Positions 12,911-63,558 of a stretch of DNA of 64,000 nucleotides are shown in pieces. Where the stretch lies: assembly GCA_903944085.1 (NCBI GenBank), contig CAJAQO010000321.1, positions 8,340 to 72,339 on the forward strand. The letters run 5' to 3'. Numbering within the stretch: the first letter of the stretch is position 1; the number at the start of each line of letters is the position of its first letter. This DNA comes from an uncultured Verrucomicrobia subdivision 3 bacterium. GTDB lineage: Bacteria > Verrucomicrobiota > Verrucomicrobiia > Limisphaerales > UBA11358. The notes under the pieces are model-generated. The model made no database searches, was not told where the DNA came from, and saw nothing but the letters and a program-made list of their open reading frames with translations. Position numbers and translations under genes: made by a program.

Positions 12911-13120
12911 AATCTGGACGCCCAAATGGGGGTCATGGATGCCCAAACGCGGGTCGTGGATGCCCAGATGGGGATGGTGGACGGTCAAACGCGGGTGGTG
13001 GACGCCTAAACGTGGGTCGTGGACGGCCAGATGGGGGTCATGGATGCCCAGATGCCGGTCGTGGACGGTCAAACGTGGGTCATGGACGCCCAGATGCGGG
13101 TGGTGGACGGCCAAATGTCC
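12911..13120. repeat. 21-bp minisatellite, about 10 units, consensus GTCRTGGAYGCCCARAYGNGG
   Basis: The units were counted directly. The region is open in several frames on both strands, which is typical of a stop-free repeat rather than a gene. Confidence 0.8.
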
Positions 13121-49149: not shown

Positions 49150-49845
49150 TCAGGCACCCACGACGATGCTCACCGGATTGCTCCACAGGCCCACTTGCGC
49201 CTCGTCCAAGCGGTAGATGCCCCGGTAAGTCCACTTAGCCGGGGCAGTCGGAAAAGGGGTGGTGTCGGTGTAGCCGGGCGTGGGGTCATAGGCCAGCGTC
49301 ACGTAACCTTTGCCGTCGTTGCGGTCCACCTGGATTTCGCATTGGTCCAGATAGGCGGCGTAGCCCTGCCAGCCCCAGCCCACCTGCACATGATTGCCGG
49401 TGATGGACAGCGTGAGCACCGGCTGCAAGGTGGTCAAATCCGGCGGCGTCAGTTCCGCGCCTTCGATGTCCAGCGCCTGACCAATGCTGGTGTTGTAATT
49501 GGCATTGCTCTTGATGTTTTGCACGAGCGCGCGGAAACGGTCTTCAATGCCCGGATTTACCGCCGGCACCGCCGGGGGCAGCACCGGCAGGCCGGGCGTG
49601 CCAGAAGCCGGCGGCACGCCGCCATCGCGCAACAAGTCCTTCCAGGCCGTGAACTGCTGGGCGTCCTTGTGCATGATGATCATGCTTTTGACCCAGTAAT
49701 CGAACGCGGCGGCATCCGCCGCCTGCGCCGCCACCTGCTCCGGCGTCAAAGCCAGCGTGGGCGCATAGGTGGGAAGGTTGTTTTTGCAGGTGAGCATCTG
49801 CGCCGCGAAGGCCAGATCGTTCTTTTGGATGGGATCTGATTTCAT
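49150..49845 (-). CDS. hypothetical protein, helical N-terminus plus FN3-like C-terminal sandwich (paralog A)
   Basis: 231 aa with no signal peptide. It shares a GGVPPA..PGL motif and a similar 5' UTR with 58718..59674. Confidence 0.6.
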   Translation of the reverse strand: MKSDPIQKNDLAFAAQMLTCKNNLPTYAPTLALTPEQVAAQAADAAAFDYWVKSMIIMHKDAQQFTAWKDLLRDGGVPPASGTPGLPVLPPAVPAVNPGIEDRFRALVQNIKSNANYNTSIGQALDIEGAELTPPDLTTLQPVLTLSITGNHVQVGWGWQGYAAYLDQCEIQVDRNDGKGYVTLAYDPTPGYTDTTPFPTAPAKWTYRGIYRLDEAQVGLWSNPVSIVVGA

Positions 49846-49924
49846 TTGGTTGTTCTTTCAGTTTCATTGTTTTATTTACCGACGGAAACAGGTCTTGGTT
49901 TGCGCGTTTAAGTGCTGTTTACCT

Positions 49925-50340
49925 TAAAAAATGGTTTCCCGCAGGGGTTCCGGGCAAACCCCGAAGCCTTCCGCGCTTTCCCGGAACGATTCCGGGAAAT
50001 GGTCAAAGGCTTCCGCGAAGCTCCGGACGGACGAAGAATTTTCCCGGCCCGCCGGCGGGAAAGCCCGGCCCGCCGTCGGGTTTTCGCCAACGGCGTCCGC
50101 GAAATGGCCAAAGGATTTGGGGAACACCCGGAATGCCTCGGGGCACCCGCCGAAGCGCGGCGGCAAGCCGCAGCGGCCGATGGCGAAACTCCGGCGGACC
50201 GGAAGCAACCGCGCCAAGCCTGGCGGCAACGCGGCGGGGAAGCGGACGGGGTGGATAAAACTCAGGCCGAGGCCGGAAAGGGAACCGGCGGAGACGACAT
50301 CAGCTTCCGGAAACCAGATATGCCGCGCAGGGGTCATCAA
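49925..50340. repeat. degenerate ~42-nt tandem array (array 1), immediately 5' of paralog A on the minus strand
   Basis: The units carry palindromic cores such as CCCGGAAcgaTTCCGGG and TTCCCGCCGGCGGGAA. The minus frame gives 14-aa pseudo-repeats (SFAEAFDHFPESFR / ESAEGFGVCPEPLR ...). Several frames are open on both strands. Confidence 0.65.
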
Positions 50341-57958: not shown

Positions 57959-58636
57959 ATGGAAAATCATTTTGAAATGGGTCTCGACGCGCTGCGGCAA
58001 AAGATTTTGCTGATGGCCAGCCGCGCCGAGACCGCCGTCAACGAGTCCGTGCAGGCGCTCGTCCAGCGCGATTACGATCTCGCCCTGCGCGTGCGCGAGG
58101 ATGACAACCTCATTGACCAGTTCGAGGTGGAGATTGATGAGATGGCCATTGTGCTGCTGACGAAAGCGCCGCTGGCCAGCAATCTCCGGCTCGTGACCGT
58201 GGCGATGAAAGTTTCGCAGAACCTCGAACGCATCGGCGACGAGGCCACCAAGATTGCCAAACGCGCCCGCGACCTGGCGCAGGAGCCGCCGGTGAAAATC
58301 AATCTGGATGTCAACCGCATGGCCGGTCTTTCCCTCGCGATGGTCAAGGAAGCGCTCGACGCGTTTGTCCACCGCGATTCCGCCGCCGCCCGCGCGCTCA
58401 TTCCGCGCGACAAGGAAGTGGACGCGCTCAACAAGGAAATCCACCAGCAGCTCGCGCAGCACATGATGGCCAACCCCGACACCATCGCCCGCTGTCTGCA
58501 TTGGATCGTTGCCAGCAAAAGCCTCGAACGCATCGCCGACCACGCGAAGAACATCGCCGAGGAAGTGGTCTTTCTCTGCGAGGCGCAGGACATCCGGCAC
58601 CCGGCGGCCAAGGCCGCCGGCAGCGCCCCCGGCTGA
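57959..58636 (+). CDS. phoU: phosphate signalling complex protein PhoU
   Basis: 225 aa with duplicated PhoU helices (E.IGD motifs: LERIGDEATKIA and LERIADHAKNIAE). Confidence 0.9.
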   Translation: MENHFEMGLDALRQKILLMASRAETAVNESVQALVQRDYDLALRVREDDNLIDQFEVEIDEMAIVLLTKAPLASNLRLVTVAMKVSQNLERIGDEATKIAKRARDLAQEPPVKINLDVNRMAGLSLAMVKEALDAFVHRDSAAARALIPRDKEVDALNKEIHQQLAQHMMANPDTIARCLHWIVASKSLERIADHAKNIAEEVVFLCEAQDIRHPAAKAAGSAPG

Positions 58637-58666
58637 AACCGGTGCCGCCTTGGTTCCGAACCAATG

Positions 58667-58709
58667 AAAAACCCGCGCGGCTCCGGCCGCGCGGGCTGAT
58701 TTTTTTTTC
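58667..58709. terminator. bidirectional rho-independent terminator
   Basis: aaaaa-CCCGCGCGGC-tccg-GCCGCGCGGG-ctga-ttttttttt, between convergent phoU and 58718..59674. Confidence 0.8.
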
Positions 58710-58717
58710 GCAGGTGG

Positions 58718-59674
58718 TTACGGCACTCCGACGCTGACCGCATCGCATGGCTGGCTTTCGCCCGTCGCATTGCGGGCGGTGACTGCCACGTTCACGTTCG
58801 CACCCGCCGGCAGGCTGTCGAAAGTGGCTTCCGCATCCTGGGTCAACTGCTCCGCCAGTTCCGTGCCATCCGCCGCGTTCGTCACCGTGAAGCGGTAGCC
58901 GGACGCGCGACGCGCGTCGTCGCAATGCACGAACAAGCTGCCCGAACCGGCAGGGCCCGGTATGACCACGAGATTTTGCGGCACATCCGGCGTGGAGGGA
59001 TGACCCGGCAGATCAAAGCCAAACGCCAGCCAGCGCGGATCATTGTCGTCGAGCAGTTGGCCGAGTTCCGCCAGCAGGCCGGACGCCCGCGCCCGCCCGG
59101 CATCAATGCCGTCCTGCAAGGCCGATTGCGCGTTGCCCGCGTCCGTGTTGCTCTGGTTGCTGGCTTTTTGCGCCGTGACGATGACGCCCGACGCGGCCTG
59201 GCACGCGGCGGCGGTGCAGGCGATGCCGTTGATATTGGCGACTTCCTTTGCCGGATTGGCCGCATAATAAGCGCTCAACAGCAGCAGCAGCGGCTGCGGA
59301 TGCGCCGGCACCGCGAGCGAGCCGCCCGTGAAACCGGCGGCGTTCCACGCGCTGTTCCATTGCGTGCCCAGCACCGGCTTGAGCGCGCCGATGCACGTCA
59401 TCGCCAGCGCGCGACCGTTGCTCTCGGCGGTGCGCAGGTCGGCGGTCATGGCCGCCTTGTTCGCCTTGGCCCCGTTCCACAGCGACTTCAAGCCCGGCAC
59501 GGCGGGCGGCACGCCGCCGGGACCGGCGGGCACACCGATGAGCGCCGTCAAATCCGTGCGGATGGCCGGGCCGGTATTTTGTTTGAGGCCGATGGCCGCG
59601 CCGTATTTGTCCGCCCCGTCGGCGGCATCTTCCAGCAGTTGCACCAGAGGATCGTATGATTCGGGGACTTGCAT
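58718..59674 (-). CDS. hypothetical protein, helical N-terminus plus FN3-like C-terminal sandwich (paralog B)
   Basis: 318 aa with no signal peptide. It carries the GGVPPAVPGL motif, and its 5' UTR resembles that of paralog A. Confidence 0.6.
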   Translation of the reverse strand: MQVPESYDPLVQLLEDAADGADKYGAAIGLKQNTGPAIRTDLTALIGVPAGPGGVPPAVPGLKSLWNGAKANKAAMTADLRTAESNGRALAMTCIGALKPVLGTQWNSAWNAAGFTGGSLAVPAHPQPLLLLLSAYYAANPAKEVANINGIACTAAACQAASGVIVTAQKASNQSNTDAGNAQSALQDGIDAGRARASGLLAELGQLLDDNDPRWLAFGFDLPGHPSTPDVPQNLVVIPGPAGSGSLFVHCDDARRASGYRFTVTNAADGTELAEQLTQDAEATFDSLPAGANVNVAVTARNATGESQPCDAVSVGVP

Positions 59675-59768
59675 GATGTTTGTTCCTTTCTTTGGTTGAT
59701 TGTGTGAAAATTTTTATTCCTCTTGAAATCCGGCGGCAACGTAAAATTGGCGAACCTTATTACATTTC

Positions 59769-60284
59769 TTGCCAAAGCTCAAAATCGCCTGGCGGAAAAC
59801 AAGCTTGGTCAAAACGCTTTTTATTTCGTGGCCATTTTCTAAACTCAACGCATGGCGAAAAAAGTTGCTGCGAAAGAACCTGTTGCCGCTCCACATCAAA
59901 AACCCTCTGCCCTCGTGGATAAAGCAACTATCTGAAAAACATGCGGAGCTTGTTGAAAAGAAGATTGAAGCCACGAAAAATCATGAGATTTTTCCAACTA
60001 GCTTTGTAGTCGCTTCGCTCCACAGTTCGTTCAAATCGATCCTGAAGCCGCTGACATTCCTAATGTCTTTAACAATCCTGGCATTCATGCTTTATGACAG
60101 TTTTTTTCCAGAAGCCAAATTATCCAGTTTTTGGGTTTGGGTATTATTACTGCCATCGTTTATCATTCCATCGGTTGCGTTTTATTTACATTCACTGACC
60201 GTCAAGCTTGCCGAAGCAGCCATTGCCCGTCTCGAAAAACAAATTCGAGAAGCCCAGCGGAAGCAAGGCGAGGAGTCGGTTTGA
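59769..60284 (+). CDS. two-TM membrane protein with flanking helices (SLATT-like architecture, unverified)
   Basis: Lies in an AT-rich segment. The TM helices are LTFLMSLTILAFMLY and FWVWVLLLPSFIIPSVAFYL, and the C-terminal helix is KLAEAAIARLEKQIREAQRK. The start is unclear (TTG). Confidence 0.5.
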   Translation: MPKLKIAWRKTSLVKTLFISWPFSKLNAWRKKLLRKNLLPLHIKNPLPSWIKQLSEKHAELVEKKIEATKNHEIFPTSFVVASLHSSFKSILKPLTFLMSLTILAFMLYDSFFPEAKLSSFWVWVLLLPSFIIPSVAFYLHSLTVKLAEAAIARLEKQIREAQRKQGEESV

Positions 60285-60318
60285 CGAAATGCCGGATGGT
60301 TTGTAATCTCACCGAATT

Positions 60319-60853
60319 ATGCCAGAGCAAATCCTATTGTTTCGGGTGTTCGTGGGTGCGCCATCGGATGTGGACGAAGCCCACGTTGTGATTCGCGGAC
60401 AAATTGAGCAATGGAATCGTGACCACGGGCCGCTGGCGGGAGCACGAGTGGAATTCACGCACTGGCGCACGCACAGTCATCCCGCCGCCGGTGGCCGTCC
60501 GCAAGCACTTCTCAACAAGCAGGTGGTGGATCAATGCGACATCATGGTGGGCATTTTCAACGCGCGGTTTGGTTCGCCCACGGGCGTCGCGGATTCAGGC
60601 ACTGAGGAGGAAATCCGGCGCAGCATCAAGCATGGCAAGAAGGTGATGGTGTATTTCAACAACCAGCCAATCCCGAAACAGCGCAAGGCGCGAAATGAAT
60701 TTGCGCGAATTGAAAAGTTCAAGCAGCAAGCTGGGGAAAAACGCCATTTATCATACCTACACCGATATGCCGACGTTTGAAGCCGCGTTTCGGCAGCACT
60801 TGGCGGGCGTGATGAACGAATTGTTGGCAAAAACCAAATCTGGATTAAAATAA
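60319..60853 (+). pseudogene. DUF4062/TIR-like (Rossmann-like) domain protein, frameshifted at a G4A5 run
   Basis: FRVFVGAPSDVDEA ... CDIMVGIFNARFGSPTGVADSGTEEEIRRSIKHGKKVMVYF fits the DUF4062-type layout. The annotated frame stops at 60780, but the adjacent frame continues as GKNAIYHTYTDMPTFEAAFRQHLAGVMNELLAKTKSGLK* to 60853, 4 nt before the next gene. Confidence 0.55.
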
Positions 60854-60857
60854 AGCC

Positions 60858-61304
60858 ATGAGTGTGAAAAACGCATTGAATGTTTCCGGTGGAAACCTGA
60901 CCGGCGCAAACGTCCACGTTGGCGACCAGGTAACGAATGTGCGTGTGAGCAAAAGCAGCAAGCGCCCCGCCTCATACCCGGAAGGCTGCATCGGCGCGAA
61001 TCTCGCCAAGCGCAATTATGTGAAATATCTGGTGGAGCGTTACAACCATTACCGCGAAGCGGACGCCCGTTTTGGACGCAGCACGCATTTTCATTATTCG
61101 GTGCTTTTCAAAAACATTGAATCCGCATTCAAAGCGCCGACTTATTTCATACCCGAACCCCGGTTTCCAGAGTTGGTTGATTATTTACACGACCGAATCA
61201 ACAACACGATTCTTGGCCGGGTGAACGGCAAGCGCGGCATTCCCAATTACGAGTCCTTCGACGAATATGTGATGGAACACATGGGCGCGGCGGTGGCGGG
61301 CTAA
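60858..61304 (+). CDS. hypothetical protein
   Basis: 148 aa, tightly spaced after the previous gene. I recognise no family. Confidence 0.5.
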   Translation: MSVKNALNVSGGNLTGANVHVGDQVTNVRVSKSSKRPASYPEGCIGANLAKRNYVKYLVERYNHYREADARFGRSTHFHYSVLFKNIESAFKAPTYFIPEPRFPELVDYLHDRINNTILGRVNGKRGIPNYESFDEYVMEHMGAAVAG

Positions 61305-61377
61305 TTAGCCTGAATGTTCTGCTTCAACCCGATCTTCTCCCCAAGGAGATGTATTTTAGCGAGCAACGGGAATTGAC

Positions 61378-61827
61378 ATGAATCTGTCCGAATTGCACCA
61401 GCGGCTCTCGAAAAAGCCTACCTATCGCAAGGCTTACGACGCCATCGGCGAAGTGGTGTTGATCGGCGCGGCGGTGCGGAAGTTGCGCGAAGATTCGGCA
61501 ATGACGCAGCAGGAACTGGCGGACAAACTCGAAATTTCGCAGTTCTATCTTTCCCGTCTCGCAACCGGCAGCGGCAGGGTTGCGCCTTATGTCGTTTCGG
61601 CGGTGGTCTGTCATTTTGAAGAAGAATTGCGCGGACTTGGAATCAATGTCGAGCCGTGGCTGGCCACAACGCCTAAAACCGCGCCGGCAGAAAAACCTTT
61701 GTCGCAACAACGGCCTATAGCGCTTGAAAACGTGTCGCGCACTCGTCGCCCGGCTGCTACCGAGGAATTGGCGGAAGGAGTTTTGCATGACAGGCCAGTG
61801 CCTTACAAAGTTGGGAAACCTCATTGA
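61378..61827 (+). CDS. XRE-family HTH transcriptional regulator
   Basis: VRKLREDSAMTQQELADKLEISQFYLSRLATG is a Cro/C1-type HTH. Confidence 0.7.
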   Translation: MNLSELHQRLSKKPTYRKAYDAIGEVVLIGAAVRKLREDSAMTQQELADKLEISQFYLSRLATGSGRVAPYVVSAVVCHFEEELRGLGINVEPWLATTPKTAPAEKPLSQQRPIALENVSRTRRPAATEELAEGVLHDRPVPYKVGKPH

Positions 61828-62002
61828 GGCTTTCTGCGTGCCGTGGTGACTTGGACTTGATTTGCATGACCACCCTCACCCCGGCCTTCTTCCCAAGGAG
61901 AAGGAGCCACGCGCGCCGCGTCTTTGGCCAAACCAGCGGCGGGATTGGTTGGATGGTTTTTGTGAAAAATCTGGTTAAATTGCTAATTTTGAATGGTTAA
62001 GA

Positions 62003-62374
62003 GGCGTTCGGGTGGGTTTGGGACGGTCTAAAAATTGCCGTCGAACGGTTCGACGGGTTCTAAAAAGCCTTTTTAGGAGGCGTCGAACGGTTCGGGTTCA
62101 CCTAAAAGCTCCTTGAAATAGAGGTCGGACGGCCCGACCGCTCCTAAAACGGCGTTCAAACTGGCGTCGAACCGTCCGGGCTGGGCTAAGACGCCGTTTC
62201 AGCAGGCAGCGAACGGTTCGACCTCATCCAAAAGCTCTTTGAAACTGCCGGCGAACGGTTCGACCGCGCTCAAAACGGCGTTCGAGCCGGCACCGAACAG
62301 CTCGACCGGATCTTAAAACCCTTTTTGAGAGGCGTCGCACGGCTCGGCGGACGTTTTAAGGTCTTTGCTGATGG
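62003..62374. repeat. degenerate ~42-nt tandem array (array 2), nine units
   Basis: The units start near 62003, 62040, 62080, 62124, 62164, 62209, 62251, 62293 and 62332. The consensus is GCGTCGAACGGTTCGAC-N5-CTAAAA-N-TTT... The core is the palindrome GTCGAACGGTTCGAC. Confidence 0.8.
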
Positions 62375-62465
62375 ACCCCGGCGGCGGGGCAAGGCGCGGA
62401 CGCCGCGCCGCCGGGAAATTGATTTTTCGTGCGCGGCGCGGCTTTTTGGGTAAAACTTTGCCCGC

Positions 62466-63095
62466 ATGTTTTCCATTTCGCAACTGTTCAGCAAAGGCGA
62501 CCGGTTTCAGGAACTGCTCGAAGCCGCCGCCGCCGAATCCCACGAAAGCGTCCGGCTCGTCATCGAGCTGATGAAGTCGCCGCGCAATTCCCAGAGCTTC
62601 GATGACCTCATTCTCGCGCGCCGCAAGGAAAAGAAAATCTCCGGGCAGATCAGCAACGAACTGGTGAAAACCTTCATCACCGGCCTGGACCGCGAGGACA
62701 TCGAGACGCTGGCACGGTCGCTGTTCCGCATCCCCAAGGCCGCCGAAAAACTGGCCGAGCGGCTGGTGATGGCCGGGGCGCATCTCGACGGCATGGATTT
62801 TTCCAAGCAGGCCGACATGATGAACAAGGCCACCGACGCCGTGCATGAAATGGTCAAGCAGTTGCGCCACCTGGAGGACATGGAAAAGCTGAAAACCTAT
62901 AACGACCGCCTCCAGCTCGTCGAAGTCGAGGCGGACAAATACATGAACGAACTGCTGCGCGATCTTTACGGCGGCAAATACGACGCCATCCGCGCCATCG
63001 TCGTGCGCGATGTTTATGAGCTGATGGAAAAGGTGGTGGACCGCTGCCACGACACCGGCAACGTGGTCATGCACATCGTGCTGAAAAACTCTTGA
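62466..63095 (+). CDS. DUF47-family (PhoU-like) phosphate-transport accessory protein
   Basis: 209 aa with a DUF47 helical pattern (…REDIE.LA..L..I.…VEVEADKYMNELLRDLY…VYELMEKVVDRCHD). It lies upstream of a PiT transporter, which is the common arrangement. Confidence 0.8.
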   Translation: MFSISQLFSKGDRFQELLEAAAAESHESVRLVIELMKSPRNSQSFDDLILARRKEKKISGQISNELVKTFITGLDREDIETLARSLFRIPKAAEKLAERLVMAGAHLDGMDFSKQADMMNKATDAVHEMVKQLRHLEDMEKLKTYNDRLQLVEVEADKYMNELLRDLYGGKYDAIRAIVVRDVYELMEKVVDRCHDTGNVVMHIVLKNS

Positions 63096-63098
63096 AAT

Positions 63099-63555
63099 GC
63101 GGAGTGCGGAATTCGGAGTGCGGAGTCACTTCGCCGAGCCACCTATGAACAACGAAAAATTGAAGGAGCGCACGAAGCGGTTTGCCTTGGAAATTGTCAA
63201 GCTGGTTGAGGCTTTGCCTCTGGGGAAAACGTGTGACGTTCTAGGGCGGCAACGGCTGCGTTCCGGCACTTCCGTCGGGGCCAATTACCGCGCCGCGTGC
63301 CGCGCCAAATCGCCCGCCGATTTTATTTTCAAAATGGGAATTGTGGAAGAAGAAGCCGATGAATCGAGCTTTTGGATTGAACTGCTGGTCGAGAGCGGAA
63401 AATTAAACCCCGACCAGGCCGCTGCCCTGCTCAAGGAGTGCAACGAACTTGTCGCCATCGTTGTCGCTTCCATCCGAACTGCAAAAAAGAACCGAGCGAC
63501 AGACTCGGCGACGTCGGCCGCTGCCACTCCGCATTCCGCACTCCGCACTCCGCAC
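63099..63555. other. IVS-like insertion: four-helix-bundle ORF bracketed by long inverted repeats of GCGGAGT units
   Basis: The left arm is GCGGAGTGCGGAATTCGGAGTGCGGAGT (63099-63126). The right arm is ACTCCGCATTCCGCACTCCGCACTCCGCAC (63526-63555). Runs of 12-13 bp can pair in more than one register. Confidence 0.7.
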
Positions 63556-63558
63556 TGA
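63145..63558 (+). CDS. four-helix-bundle protein (23S rRNA intervening-sequence protein family)
   Basis: ERTKRFALEIVKLVEALP...GRQRLRSGTSVGANYRAACRAKS.ADFI.KMGIVEEEADES.FW.ELL is the signature. The ATG at 63145 is preferred over 63097, which lies in the repeat arm. Confidence 0.8.
   Translation: MNNEKLKERTKRFALEIVKLVEALPLGKTCDVLGRQRLRSGTSVGANYRAACRAKSPADFIFKMGIVEEEADESSFWIELLVESGKLNPDQAAALLKECNELVAIVVASIRTAKKNRATDSATSAAATPHSALRTPH

What the first reader, a model, noticed from the sequence alone, without database searches (positions are those of the whole stretch)
59700..61990. Low-GC four-gene cassette inserted inside a duplicated locus between two phosphate operons; candidate conflict/defence module
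The cassette holds a 2-TM protein, a DUF4062/TIR-like protein, an unknown protein and an XRE regulator.

Seen in sequence:
- 59.8-61.3 kb is visibly AT-richer than the flanks. I estimate about 42% GC by eye for 59.9-60.3 kb against about 60% elsewhere.
- It carries four same-strand, tightly spaced genes.
- At the paralogous locus (49150-50340), the 42-nt array sits about 80 nt 5' of the FN3-tailed gene.
- Here the homologous array (62003-62374) and the homologous gene with its 5' UTR (58718-59745) are separated by this 2.2 kb cassette on the opposite strand.
- That is what an insertion into an ancestral array-plus-gene unit would look like.

Inference: a small 2-TM protein followed by a TIR/DUF4062-like Rossmann-type domain and an HTH regulator resembles the effector-plus-sensor logic of known conflict systems (SLATT 2-TM effectors pair with SLOG/TIR-like domains). 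The third gene has no family I recognise. No integrase or clear att duplication was found.
Basis: partly seen in the sequence, partly recalled or inferred. Interest (0 to 1): 0.7.

Follow-up and report, generated by a model that had tools for sequence, protein, structure and literature searches.

The report
Decayed defence island with split DUF4062 NADase module
The "four-gene cassette" is the eroded remnant of a mobile defence island whose only conserved unit is a two-gene module: a TIR-like DUF4062 enzyme (broken here by a frameshift) and a small uncatalogued partner protein whose domain is elsewhere fused to many different cell-killing enzymes.

Summary
The low-GC stretch, the four same-strand ORFs, the DUF4062 hit and the XRE hit are all real. 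The segment is foreign: close Limisphaerales relatives have phoU directly followed by DUF47-pit.

It is not a four-gene system:
- g1 (the "2-TM" ORF) is an orphan ORF. It overlaps a truncated DNA-methyltransferase 5' remnant plus unique AT-rich filler.
- g4 (XRE) is an orphan HigA-type antitoxin. Its Gp49/HigB toxin gene has been lost.
- Only g2+g3 recur elsewhere, in more than 120 loci. They form a 1.0-kb unit with a 4-nt gap, inserted at unrelated sites or at the end of an MTase-Mrr (sometimes STAND) island.
- In the window, g2 carries a +1 frameshift that removes strand beta5 and helix alphaE.

The g3 domain has no Pfam, PADLOC, NCBIfam, PHROGs or PDB match. It also occurs as the C-terminal domain of HNH, TIR, SEFIR, Mrr and DUF4062 proteins, including full g2-g3 fusions. 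g2 is never found without g3, whereas g3 is often found without g2.

Best reading: a split, two-gene variant of the DUF4062 NADase defence systems (Swarozyc, Evangelion), in which g3 is the sensor or restraining partner. The copy in this genome is probably inactive.

The parts
58637..62415 (.). Variable segment between phoU and the DUF47-IVP-PHO4 operon. It is absent in relatives, which have a gap of only 53-359 nt here.
   Evidence: tblastn of all locus proteins against L006-L043. The gap sequences of L009, L011 and L013, and the alignment of the right edge (window about 62416 onward) to L011.
58718..59674 (-). p318: a 318-aa orphan gene (GC 67%) inside the variable segment. It is not linked to the module anywhere else.
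   Evidence: No Pfam, PADLOC, NCBIfam or PHROGs hit. No homologue in about 240 fetched loci.
59797..59935 (+). Remnant of the promoter region and first 23-27 codons of an N6_N4 DNA methyltransferase gene (ATG 59852, stop 59933-59935).
   Evidence: DNA homology of 82-87% to L106 3095-3186, L109 2534-2601, L116 615-736 and L117 2393-2515, all at the start of MTase genes. The L106 and L109 genes carry PF01555.
59769..60284 (+). g1, the '2-TM' ORF (171 aa, TTG start). It is an orphan and probably not a gene. Its first third overlaps the MTase remnant in another frame. The rest lies in unique AT-rich filler (59936-60270, GC 42.7%).
   Evidence: No family hit. One 98%-identical relative only. Not called by gene finders. 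The equivalent frame in L117 is interrupted by stops. No match of 59920-60270 in any locus.
60300..61305 (+). Conserved two-gene module (g2+g3): the only part of the 'cassette' that recurs elsewhere.
   Evidence: blastn shows 68-90% identity across L086-L109, always ending at these borders. GC of 0.53-0.57 is kept whatever the host GC.
60319..60853 (+). g2: DUF4062 (TIR-like NADase family) gene, 177 aa when intact. Here a +1 insertion at about 60725 splits it into ORF 60319-60780 (153 aa) and the out-of-frame C-terminus in 60695-60853. The motifs F11, Q31-W32 and S93-G-T-E96-E97-E98 are intact. Strand beta5 and helix alphaE are lost.
   Evidence: Pfam and PADLOC hits. Protein and DNA alignments. 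Secondary structure of the fusion model. Motif positions. The identical 153-aa product occurs on 22 contigs from several samples.
60858..61304 (+). g3: intact 148-aa partner protein. It has a disordered N-terminal ~35 residues followed by a five-helix domain of an uncatalogued family.
   Evidence: More than 238 close homologues with 55 invariant columns. AF2 core pLDDT above 90 and no Foldseek or PDB match. 413 profile hits, including fusions to HNH, TIR, SEFIR, Mrr and DUF4062. dN/dS of 0.05-0.14.
61324..61349 (+). 26-nt partial copy of the left end of the MITE-like element.
   Evidence: 96% identical to L109 7231-7256.
61342..61377 (+). Last ~36 nt of a lost Gp49/HigB-type toxin gene. Homology to intact toxin-antitoxin loci starts here.
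   Evidence: blastn to L111, L112, L113 and L152 starts at window 61342. The upstream genes in L111 and L113 match PF05973 (E ~1e-14).
61378..61827 (+). g4: XRE/HigA-type HTH protein, an orphan antitoxin.
   Evidence: HTH_31 and HTH_3 hits. Homologues in L111 and L113 overlap a Gp49 toxin gene by 4 nt. L152 has Gp49-g4-g3.
61870..61957 (+). Left ~88 nt of a MITE-like repeat. The full element is about 170 nt with 33-nt terminal inverted repeats in L109, where two direct copies bracket the module.
   Evidence: 88-94% identity to L109 7225-7312 and 8460-8547, L114, L118, L140, L092 and L112. It occurs nowhere else in the 64-kb window.
62003..62374 (.). 42-nt periodic array (unit contains TCGAACGGTTCGA). 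It belongs to the variable segment. Its function is unknown and it is not part of the module.
   Evidence: the repeat finder family D1. Units printed in register. Absent from the relatives' gaps. No Rfam match.

Best explanation
SHOWN
- The region is a mosaic, partly decayed remnant of a mobile defence island that landed between phoU and the DUF47-pit operon of a Limisphaerales bacterium.
- Its one conserved unit is the two-gene module g2-g3.
- g2 belongs to the DUF4062 family.
- g2 and g3 are always adjacent with a 4-nt spacer, occur as natural single-chain fusions, and are both under strong purifying selection.
- g2 is never found without g3, while g3 often outlives g2.
- The g3 domain is also attached to HNH, TIR, SEFIR, Mrr, methylase and cyclase domains.
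- In this window g2 has a +1 frameshift that removes the last strand and helix of the catalytic fold.
- g1 is an orphan ORF over a methyltransferase 5' remnant plus AT-rich filler.
- g4 is an antitoxin that has lost its Gp49/HigB toxin.
- MITE-like repeats mark the junctions.

INFERRED
- g2 is an NAD+-degrading effector, like the DUF4062 proteins of Swarozyc and Evangelion.
- g3 plays the role that the fused C-terminal AUX region plays in those single-gene systems. [quoted passage not shown]
- The module spreads horizontally, in one clade between flanking MITE-like copies.
- The copy in this genome is probably non-functional as a defence system. g3 may be retained only as a leftover or as insurance.
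For: INSERTION
- phoU is directly followed by DUF47 in L009, L011 and L013. None of 38 related loci carries p318 or g1-g4.
- GC3 of g2 and g3 is foreign.

MODULE
- g2 and g3 are adjacent in all informative loci of three independent scans.
- DNA conservation is limited to window 60300-61305.
- Host contexts are unrelated: an ATP-synthase operon, xfp/ackA, aldehyde dehydrogenase/aminotransferase.
- Some loci are R-M/Mrr/STAND islands.

g2
- DUF4062 hit above the Pfam cut-off and PDC-S60 N-terminus at E = 3.5e-26.
- Conserved F11, QW and SGTEEE motifs match the motifs described for Eva01 and KpSwz.
- DUF4062 is shown to be an NADase in defence in the preprints 10.64898/2026.05.01.722283 and 10.64898/2026.06.25.731849.

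g2-g3 COUPLING
- Five representative proteins and three genomic loci are full-length fusions.
- All 25 g2 loci at >=50% identity have g3 adjacent.
- g2 is absent in 12 and decayed in 5 of the metagenome loci that carry g3, and also decayed in the window, L090, L101 and L106.

g3 AS A SWAPPABLE PARTNER DOMAIN
- Pfam scan of 65 fusion proteins, with coordinates.

OTHER POINTS
- Frameshift.
- Purifying selection: dN/dS of 0.03-0.14.
- g1.
- g4.
- MITE-like element.
Against: - No biochemical or phage data exist for this clade. NADase activity and defence are extrapolated from DUF4062 proteins at low sequence identity.
- The Foldseek search of the fusion model did not single out TIR folds. Ras-like folds ranked first, and the TIR domain 3ozi came 29th, though with the best TM.
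- Many module copies sit alone among housekeeping genes rather than in defence islands, and none was found on IMG/VR viral contigs.
- g3 is not detectably related to the AUX region of the nearest single-chain DUF4062 clade (hhalign probability 0.2%), so 'AUX-equivalent' is an analogy, not a homology.
- The truncated g2 shows no relaxed selection upstream of the frameshift. It could retain some function, or the shift may simply be very recent.
- A 73-aa 2-TM peptide starting at the internal ATG of g1 cannot be excluded.
Confidence: 0.7

Rival explanations
1. g2-g3 is primarily a selfish toxin-antitoxin (addiction) pair. g2 is an NADase-type toxin and g3 is its protein antitoxin. Its spread and persistence come from post-segregational killing rather than phage defence.
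For: - It consists of two small genes with a 4-nt spacer that are horizontally mobile and inserted at many unrelated sites.
- The putative toxin is never found without the partner (25 of 25 loci).
- The partner is often found alone or next to a decayed toxin.
- It co-localises with other TA pairs: Gp49-HigA in the window and L152, UPF0175-PIN in L106, and RelB-ParE near the P0116 locus.
Against: - g3 has no recognisable DNA-binding or antitoxin fold.
- The gene order is effector first, partner second.
- Natural single-chain g2-g3 fusions, and fusions of the g3 domain to HNH, TIR, SEFIR and Mrr, fit a cis-regulatory or sensor domain better than a labile antitoxin.
- TA and abortive-infection roles are not mutually exclusive.
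Confidence: 0.2
2. One reading: a four-gene conflict system in which a 2-TM (SLATT-like) membrane effector works with a TIR/SLOG-like sensor, an unknown protein and an XRE regulator.
For: - The four ORFs are on the same strand and closely spaced.
- By inspection of the translation, the C-terminal half of g1 has two hydrophobic stretches.
- g2 is TIR-like and g4 is an HTH protein.
Against: - g1 and g4 are never linked to g2-g3 in more than 120 loci.
- g1 has no SLATT or any other family hit and no homologues.
- Part of g1 overlaps a methyltransferase remnant, and its frame is broken in L117.
- g4 belongs to a different module, Gp49-HigA.
- Conserved DNA ends at 60300 and 61305.
Confidence: 0.03
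3. g2-g3 is a housekeeping or regulatory nucleotide-metabolism pair (for example a nucleoside 2-deoxyribosyltransferase-like enzyme plus a regulator) with no role in conflict.
For: - Weak Nuc_deoxyrib_tr hit (E = 0.19).
- Several copies are embedded among metabolic genes or even inside an ATPase operon.
- Both genes are under strong purifying selection.
Against: - The distribution is patchy and the insertion sites are non-syntenic.
- The composition is foreign.
- Pseudogenisation is frequent.
- The module recurs next to R-M, Mrr, STAND and TA genes.
- The g3 domain is fused to nucleases and TIR/SEFIR domains typical of defence effectors.
Confidence: 0.05

Closest known systems
Swarozyc (KpSwz; DUF4062 TIR-like NADase defence, bioRxiv 10.64898/2026.05.01.722283)
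   Same: - The effector domain family is the same (DUF4062).
- The acidic catalytic motif is conserved: SGTEEE in g2, against the catalytic E97 in KpSwz.
- The logic is an effector plus an extra region needed for sensing.
- Both are horizontally mobile, and part of their loci lie in defence islands.
   Different: - Swarozyc is one polypeptide (DUF4062 plus a C-terminal AUX that binds the phage portal). Here the core and the partner are two genes, and only a minority of relatives are fused.
- g3 shows no detectable homology to the AUX of the nearest single-chain DUF4062 clade or to any PDB chain.
- The KpSwz sequence itself was not available for comparison.
Evangelion (Eva01-04; plasmid-borne DUF4062 + short AUX, bioRxiv 10.64898/2026.06.25.731849)
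   Same: - The DUF4062 core carries the same motifs: an N-terminal aromatic residue (F11), a Q/W/E motif and a catalytic Glu.
- AUX is required for defence (Eva01 L177* is inactive), which parallels the strict dependence of g2 on g3.
   Different: - Evangelion is a single gene, is enriched on plasmids of Firmicutes and Proteobacteria, and has a short AUX.
- The present module is split, is chromosomal in Verrucomicrobiota and Planctomycetota, and its partner is a 110-residue helical domain shared with other effector types.
- tblastn with g3 found no S. aureus plasmid hit.
bSEFIR (single-gene SEFIR-domain defence; Millman et al. preprint 10.1101/2022.05.11.491447; PADLOC PDLC03957)
   Same: - Some proteins that match the bSEFIR model strongly (P0270, E = 6e-68) carry a g3-type domain at their C-terminus, and the model's match runs into that domain.
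- The architecture is the same: an N-terminal TIR-superfamily effector followed by a C-terminal g3-type domain.
   Different: - The effector is SEFIR, not DUF4062, and it is fused rather than split.
- g3 itself does not hit the bSEFIR model.
- Whether the experimentally tested Bacillus bSEFIR protein contains the domain was not tested.
PADLOC candidate PDC-S60
   Same: g2 and the g2-g3 fusions match its N-terminal ~140-190 positions (E from 1e-26 to 1e-29).
   Different: PDC-S60 is a 906-position model. The remaining ~720 positions have no counterpart here, so only the effector domain is shared.
Gp49/HigB-HigA type II toxin-antitoxin pairs (relevant to g4 only)
   Same: g4 is 82-88% identical at the DNA level to antitoxin genes that overlap a PF05973 toxin gene by 4 nt in L111, L113 and L152.
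   Different: The toxin gene is missing in the window, and only its last ~36 nt remain.

Membership tests
DUF4062 / TIR-like NADase family (g2) | Significant match to PF13271 | tested here: met
   29.0 bits against a gathering cut-off of 24.7, E = 1.3e-6. PADLOC PDC-S60 N-terminal domain at E = 3.5e-26.
DUF4062 / TIR-like NADase family (g2) | Conserved catalytic glutamate region and the F / QW(E) motifs | tested here: met
   F11, Q31-W32 and S93-G-T-E96-E97-E98 are present in the window copy and invariant in the family. The motifs are as described. Residue-by-residue alignment to KpSwz or Eva01 was not possible because their sequences are not held.
DUF4062 / TIR-like NADase family (g2) | Complete five-stranded beta/alpha core | tested here: not met
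   The window copy has a +1 frameshift at about 60725 that replaces beta5 and alphaE with 14 unrelated residues. Intact homologues (177 aa) have the full core.
DUF4062 / TIR-like NADase family (g2) | NAD+ hydrolase activity | not testable with these tools
   This needs an enzyme assay on an intact homologue.
Swarozyc / Evangelion single-gene DUF4062 systems | DUF4062 core and AUX region on one polypeptide | tested here: not met
   They are separate genes with a 4-nt spacer in the window and in all 25 close loci. Only distant relatives are fused.
Swarozyc / Evangelion single-gene DUF4062 systems | AUX region homologous to the published AUX | tested here: inconclusive
   g3 against the AUX of the nearest single-chain clade gives hhalign probability 0.2%. 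No S. aureus plasmid hit. No PDB hit. The KpSwz and Eva01 sequences themselves were not available.
   g1 has no Pfam or PADLOC hit at E <= 1, a single 98%-identical relative, is never linked to g2-g3, and overlaps an MTase remnant.
Type II toxin-antitoxin (Gp49/HigB-HigA), for g4 | HTH antitoxin with an adjacent Gp49-family toxin gene | tested here: not met
   The antitoxin is present. The toxin is present in L111, L113 and L152 but absent from the window, where homology starts 36 nt upstream of g4.
Type II toxin-antitoxin, for g2-g3 | Toxin never encoded without its cognate neutraliser, and a two-gene operon | tested here: met
   25 of 25 g2-ascertained loci have g3. g3 is seen without an intact g2 in at least 17 metagenome loci. 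The spacer is 4 nt.
Type II toxin-antitoxin, for g2-g3 | Direct neutralisation of the toxin by the partner, and an autoregulating DNA-binding antitoxin | not testable with these tools
   No DNA-binding family or fold was recognised in g3. Neutralisation needs an experiment.
MITE-like element flanking the module | Short non-coding element with terminal inverted repeats present in several copies | tested here: met
   The L109 element is about 170 nt with 33-nt inverted ends (88% complementary) and two direct copies that bracket the module. Further copies occur in L092, L112, L114, L140 and the window. Target-site duplications and a cognate transposase were not examined.

The most novel reading that the evidence does not exclude
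The g3 domain is a so far undescribed, widespread control module of prokaryotic immune effectors. It is a ~110-residue helical domain absent from Pfam, PADLOC, NCBIfam, PHROGs and the PDB. It plugs into at least six effector types (HNH, TIR, SEFIR, Mrr, DUF4062, methylase/cyclase), either fused or encoded as a separate gene. The g2-g3 pair would then be the first split, two-component DUF4062 NADase system, in which the partner both restrains and triggers the enzyme. I could not read the third DUF4062 ('NIR') preprint, which may already describe this.
Probability: 0.4. Interest if true: 0.75.

Novelty: new variant of a known kind. Interest (0 to 1): 0.55.

Why it matters
DUF4062 was recognised only in 2026 as a TIR-like NADase used in bacterial immunity and in the human vault protein TEP1. 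All tested bacterial systems are single proteins whose C-terminal AUX region does the sensing.

A natural split form separates the effector and its controller into two small proteins that are also found fused. That makes it a convenient system for asking how such NADases are kept off and switched on.

The partner domain recurs on nucleases and on TIR/SEFIR proteins. This suggests a common, uncatalogued sensing or regulatory module, which annotation pipelines currently label 'hypothetical' or name only by the effector domain.

For this genome, the result is a correct annotation: a pseudogenised defence module, an orphan antitoxin and a spurious ORF, rather than a four-gene system.

Tried and rejected
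- SLATT/2-TM effector idea: rejected.
- XRE as the module's regulator: rejected, it is a HigA-type orphan antitoxin.
- 'Duplicated locus' (p318/p231 paralogy and homologous arrays): only BLASTP E = 0.025, and the array units differ. Neither gene has relatives in about 240 loci.
- Foldseek of g3 against the PDB: no hit, best E = 3.8.
- Sequence searches of the g2 and g3 profiles against the PDB: nothing.
- Foldseek of the fusion model: non-discriminating, generic alpha/beta folds.
- PHROGs: nothing for g1, g3 or p318.
- NCBIfam: nothing over the g3 domain.
- IMG/VR viral contigs: no g3 relatives.
- Rfam on 58600-62500: no match.
- hhalign of g3 against the AUX of single-chain DUF4062 proteins: no relationship.
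- Target-site duplication at the edges of the 3.8-kb segment: only a weak 30-nt resemblance between two GC-rich hairpin + TGATTTTT stretches, not convincing.
- Sequencing error as the cause of the frameshift: unlikely, because the identical 153-aa product is on 22 contigs from several samples and assemblers.
- Programmed frameshift: not supported, because more than 100 homologues are in a single frame.
- The 'NIR' preprint 10.64898/2026.09.04.749371 could not be opened.
Full report
OBSERVATION

The four same-strand ORFs are present: g1 59769-60284, g2 60319-60780, g3 60858-61304 and g4 61378-61827. The window averages 58.5% GC (SD 3.8% for 500-nt windows). The stretch 59700-60300 is 43.3% GC (z = -4.2) and holds the lowest-GC 500 nt of the whole 64 kb. 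The g2-g3 part is only mildly low at 53% (z = -1.8). Third-position GC shows that all four ORFs are compositionally foreign: g1 0.49, g2 0.64, g3 0.63 and g4 0.59, against 0.78-0.82 for pstB, phoU and DUF47.

Profile searches confirm DUF4062 for g2 (29 bits, cut-off 24.7) and add a strong match to the N-terminal ~140 positions of the PADLOC candidate PDC-S60 (E = 3.5e-26). g4 is an XRE-type HTH. g1 and g3 hit nothing in Pfam, PADLOC or NCBIfam.

The 42-nt array at 62003-62374 is real. The supposed paralogous locus near 50 kb is weak. The two proteins align at E = 0.025 only. The 50-kb array is degenerate and has a different unit sequence.

ORGANISM AND INSERTION

The exact g2 product occurs on 22 lake-metagenome and MAG contigs with identical synteny. 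PhoU-based retrieval places the window in Limisphaerales, Verrucomicrobia subdivision 3.

In relatives with 78-83% identical PhoU (L009, L011, L013), phoU is followed directly by DUF47, with gaps of 359, 53 and 302 nt. None of 38 related loci encodes p318, g1, g2, g3 or g4. The conserved DUF47 leader starts at about window 62416. So the whole 58637-62415 segment (p318, the 'cassette' and the array) is variable DNA. The idea that the cassette split an ancestral array-plus-gene unit has no support. In L013 the same intergenic site holds a solo MITE-like element related to the one described below.

THE CONSERVED UNIT IS TWO GENES

g3 has more than 238 close homologues of about 147 aa, and 55 of ~147 columns are invariant. 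g2 has more than 110 homologues, nearly all 177 aa.

Three independent samplings were made: 17 GTDB loci found through g3, 80 metagenome loci found through g3, and 53 GTDB loci found through g2. In all of them g2 and g3 are adjacent and co-oriented with a 4-nt spacer. g1, g4 and p318 are not linked to them. DNA similarity of 68-90% runs only from window ~60300 to 61305.

The module keeps 53-57% GC in hosts that range from 52 to 63%. It sits in unrelated places:
- inside an ATP-synthase operon (L086);
- between phosphoketolase and acetate kinase (L088);
- between aldehyde dehydrogenase/DeoC and an aminotransferase (L107).

In about ten loci it lies downstream of an N6_N4 methyltransferase and an Mrr-like nuclease. 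In L109, the closest relative at 90% DNA identity, the island also holds a methylase/BsuBI-PstI fusion and a STAND NTPase. Both genes are under strong purifying selection, with dN/dS of 0.03-0.14.

g2 IN THE WINDOW IS BROKEN

The window's g2 is 153 aa. The homologous C-terminus (NAIYHTYTDMPTFEAAFRQHLAGVMNELLAK...) lies in the overlapping ORF 60695-60853. A DNA alignment shows one extra base at about 60725. With the frame restored, g2 would end 4 nt before g3, as it does everywhere else.

On the AlphaFold model of a natural g2-g3 fusion (pLDDT 69), the lost part corresponds to strand beta5 and helix alphaE of the five-stranded beta/alpha core. The motifs F11, Q31-W32 and S93-G-T-E96-E97-E98 are intact. 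They match the aromatic, Q/W/E and catalytic-Glu motifs reported for Eva01 and KpSwz.

The frameshift is not an assembly error, because the same product is found in many independent assemblies. It looks recent, because the upstream part shows no excess of non-synonymous change.

Decay of g2 is recurrent:
- frameshift or deletion in L090;
- internal deletion in L101;
- near-complete loss in L106;
- absent next to g3 in 12 metagenome loci and decayed in 5 more.

Conversely, all 25 g2-ascertained loci with at least 50% identity have g3. The asymmetry is therefore not an ascertainment artefact.

WHAT g3 IS

AlphaFold gives a disordered N-terminal ~35 residues and a confident five-helix domain (core pLDDT above 90). 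Foldseek against the PDB (best E = 3.8) and a profile search of PDB sequences find nothing.

A profile search of 1.84 billion representative proteins gives 413 hits. Many are 225-586-aa proteins in which the g3 domain is C-terminal. Among 65 such proteins, the N-terminal parts are:
- HNH nucleases (at least 25);
- TIR, TIR_2 or ThsB-TIR (about 10);
- DUF4062 (5 by a family-specific HMM);
- SEFIR, Mrr, an Eco57I-type methylase and a nucleotide cyclase.

All Pfam, PADLOC and NCBIfam matches fall on those N-terminal parts. The one exception is the PADLOC bSEFIR model, whose match to P0270 (E = 6e-68, residues 3-269) runs into the g3 domain at residues 189-307.

Five representative proteins and three genomic loci (Roseovarius, Akkermansiaceae, Kiritimatiellia) are end-to-end g2-g3 fusions. 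HNH-g3 fusions also occur on conjugative plasmids.

More distant g2-like genes encode ~340-390-aa DUF4062+AUX proteins. Their AUX is unrelated to g3 (hhalign probability 0.2%).

g1 AND g4

Window 59797-59919 is 82-87% identical to the promoter-proximal region and first ~23 codons of N6_N4 methyltransferase genes that head the islands in L106, L109, L116 and L117. In the window that reading frame (ATG 59852) stops after 27 codons.

g1 is read in another frame across this remnant and continues into 59936-60270. That stretch is AT-rich and matches nothing in any locus. g1 has a single 98%-identical relative among 5.8 billion clusters, is not called by gene finders, and its frame is interrupted by stops in L117. 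I therefore regard g1 as a chance ORF across a deletion scar. A short 2-TM peptide starting at its internal ATG cannot be excluded.

g4's homologues in L111 and L113 are preceded by a Gp49/HigB-family toxin gene (PF05973, E ~1e-14) that overlaps them by 4 nt. L152 has toxin-g4-g3. In the window (and in L112) homology begins only 36 nt upstream of g4, so the toxin gene is gone.

JUNCTIONS

In L109/L110 the module is bracketed by two direct copies of a ~170-nt element with 33-nt inverted ends. The window has the first ~88 nt of it at 61870-61957 and a 26-nt piece at 61324-61349, so g4 lies between them. Copies also flank modules or g4 in L092, L112, L114 and L140. The element occurs nowhere else in the 64-kb window. 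No integrase and no convincing target duplication was found.

INTERPRETATION

Shown:
- The region is a foreign, mosaic and partly degraded island.
- A strictly coupled g2-g3 pair is its only conserved unit.
- g2 belongs to DUF4062.
- The g3 domain is a swappable partner of toxic effector domains.

From the literature: DUF4062 proteins are TIR-like NADases that cause abortive infection, and they need their C-terminal AUX region for defence (10.64898/2026.05.01.722283 and 10.64898/2026.06.25.731849).

Inferred:
- g2-g3 is a split two-component version of such a system.
- g3 restrains g2 and senses infection.
- The one-sided decay pattern suggests that g2 is harmful or useless without g3, which also fits a toxin-antitoxin-like relationship.
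- In this genome the system is probably inactive.

Limits:
- There are no experimental data for this clade.
- The fold search of the fusion model did not discriminate.
- The KpSwz, Eva01 and bSEFIR sequences and the third DUF4062 preprint were not available.

Noticed in passing
window 62003-62374; also 49935-50160 and 12915-13117: There are three non-coding arrays with 21/42/63-nt periodicity, built from short imperfect palindromes. The units are TCGAACGGTTCGA at 62 kb, CCCGGAA..TTCCGGG at 50 kb and TGGACGCCCAAATGCGGGTCG at 13 kb. The unit sequences differ between arrays. The 62-kb array is absent from relatives and has no Rfam match.
   Followed up: partly
window 63096-63126 and 63525-63556: The 23S-rRNA-IVP-family gene (63097-63558), wedged between DUF47 and the PHO4 phosphate transporter, is flanked by tandem heptamer repeats (TGCGGAG x4 and CACTCCG x4.6). 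The two are reverse complements of each other, so the transcript could form a long stem around the gene. A homologous IVP gene is at the same place in L009.
   Followed up: no
window 58718-59674 (-) and 49150-49845 (-): Two GC-rich orphan genes (318 and 231 aa) with no family hit and no relatives in about 240 fetched loci. p318 lies inside the variable segment next to phoU and shares a hairpin-plus-T-run terminator-like sequence with it (58666-58708).
   Followed up: partly
L013 10652-10953: In a relative, the phoU|DUF47 intergenic site holds a solo MITE-like element (CTCTCCC...GGGAGAGGG hairpins at both ends). It looks related to the element that flanks the g2-g3 module, which suggests this site is a hotspot for that element family.
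   Followed up: partly
L086 7001-7982 (and L087): The g2-g3 module is inserted inside an ATP-synthase operon of the AtpR/ATPase_gene1 type, between the B subunit and the alpha subunit, in the same orientation as the operon.
   Followed up: no
L152 2-1078: The arrangement here is Gp49 toxin - g4-type antitoxin - g3 (g3 lacks its first ~8 codons and g2 is absent). The same TA family and the module therefore meet repeatedly but in different orders.
   Followed up: partly
L106 3119-7653: A decayed g2-g3 copy lies between a two-methyltransferase/265-aa putative R-M system and a UPF0175-PIN(DUF3368) toxin-antitoxin pair, which is a small defence island. The 265-aa protein has no Pfam hit.
   Followed up: partly
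L109 5522-7216: A 564-aa STAND NTPase (NB-ARC/AAA_16 + TPR) sits directly upstream of g2-g3 in the closest relative of the window's module. Whether it works with the module was not examined.
   Followed up: no
A7 (L213-L233 tails) compared with g3 residues 8-25: The linker just after the DUF4062 core carries a similar short motif (G-x-N-x-x-V-x-V-G-D/G) in two places: the N-terminus of g3, and the otherwise unrelated AUX regions of single-chain DUF4062 proteins. It may correspond to the small inter-subunit beta-sheet described for KpSwz.
   Followed up: no
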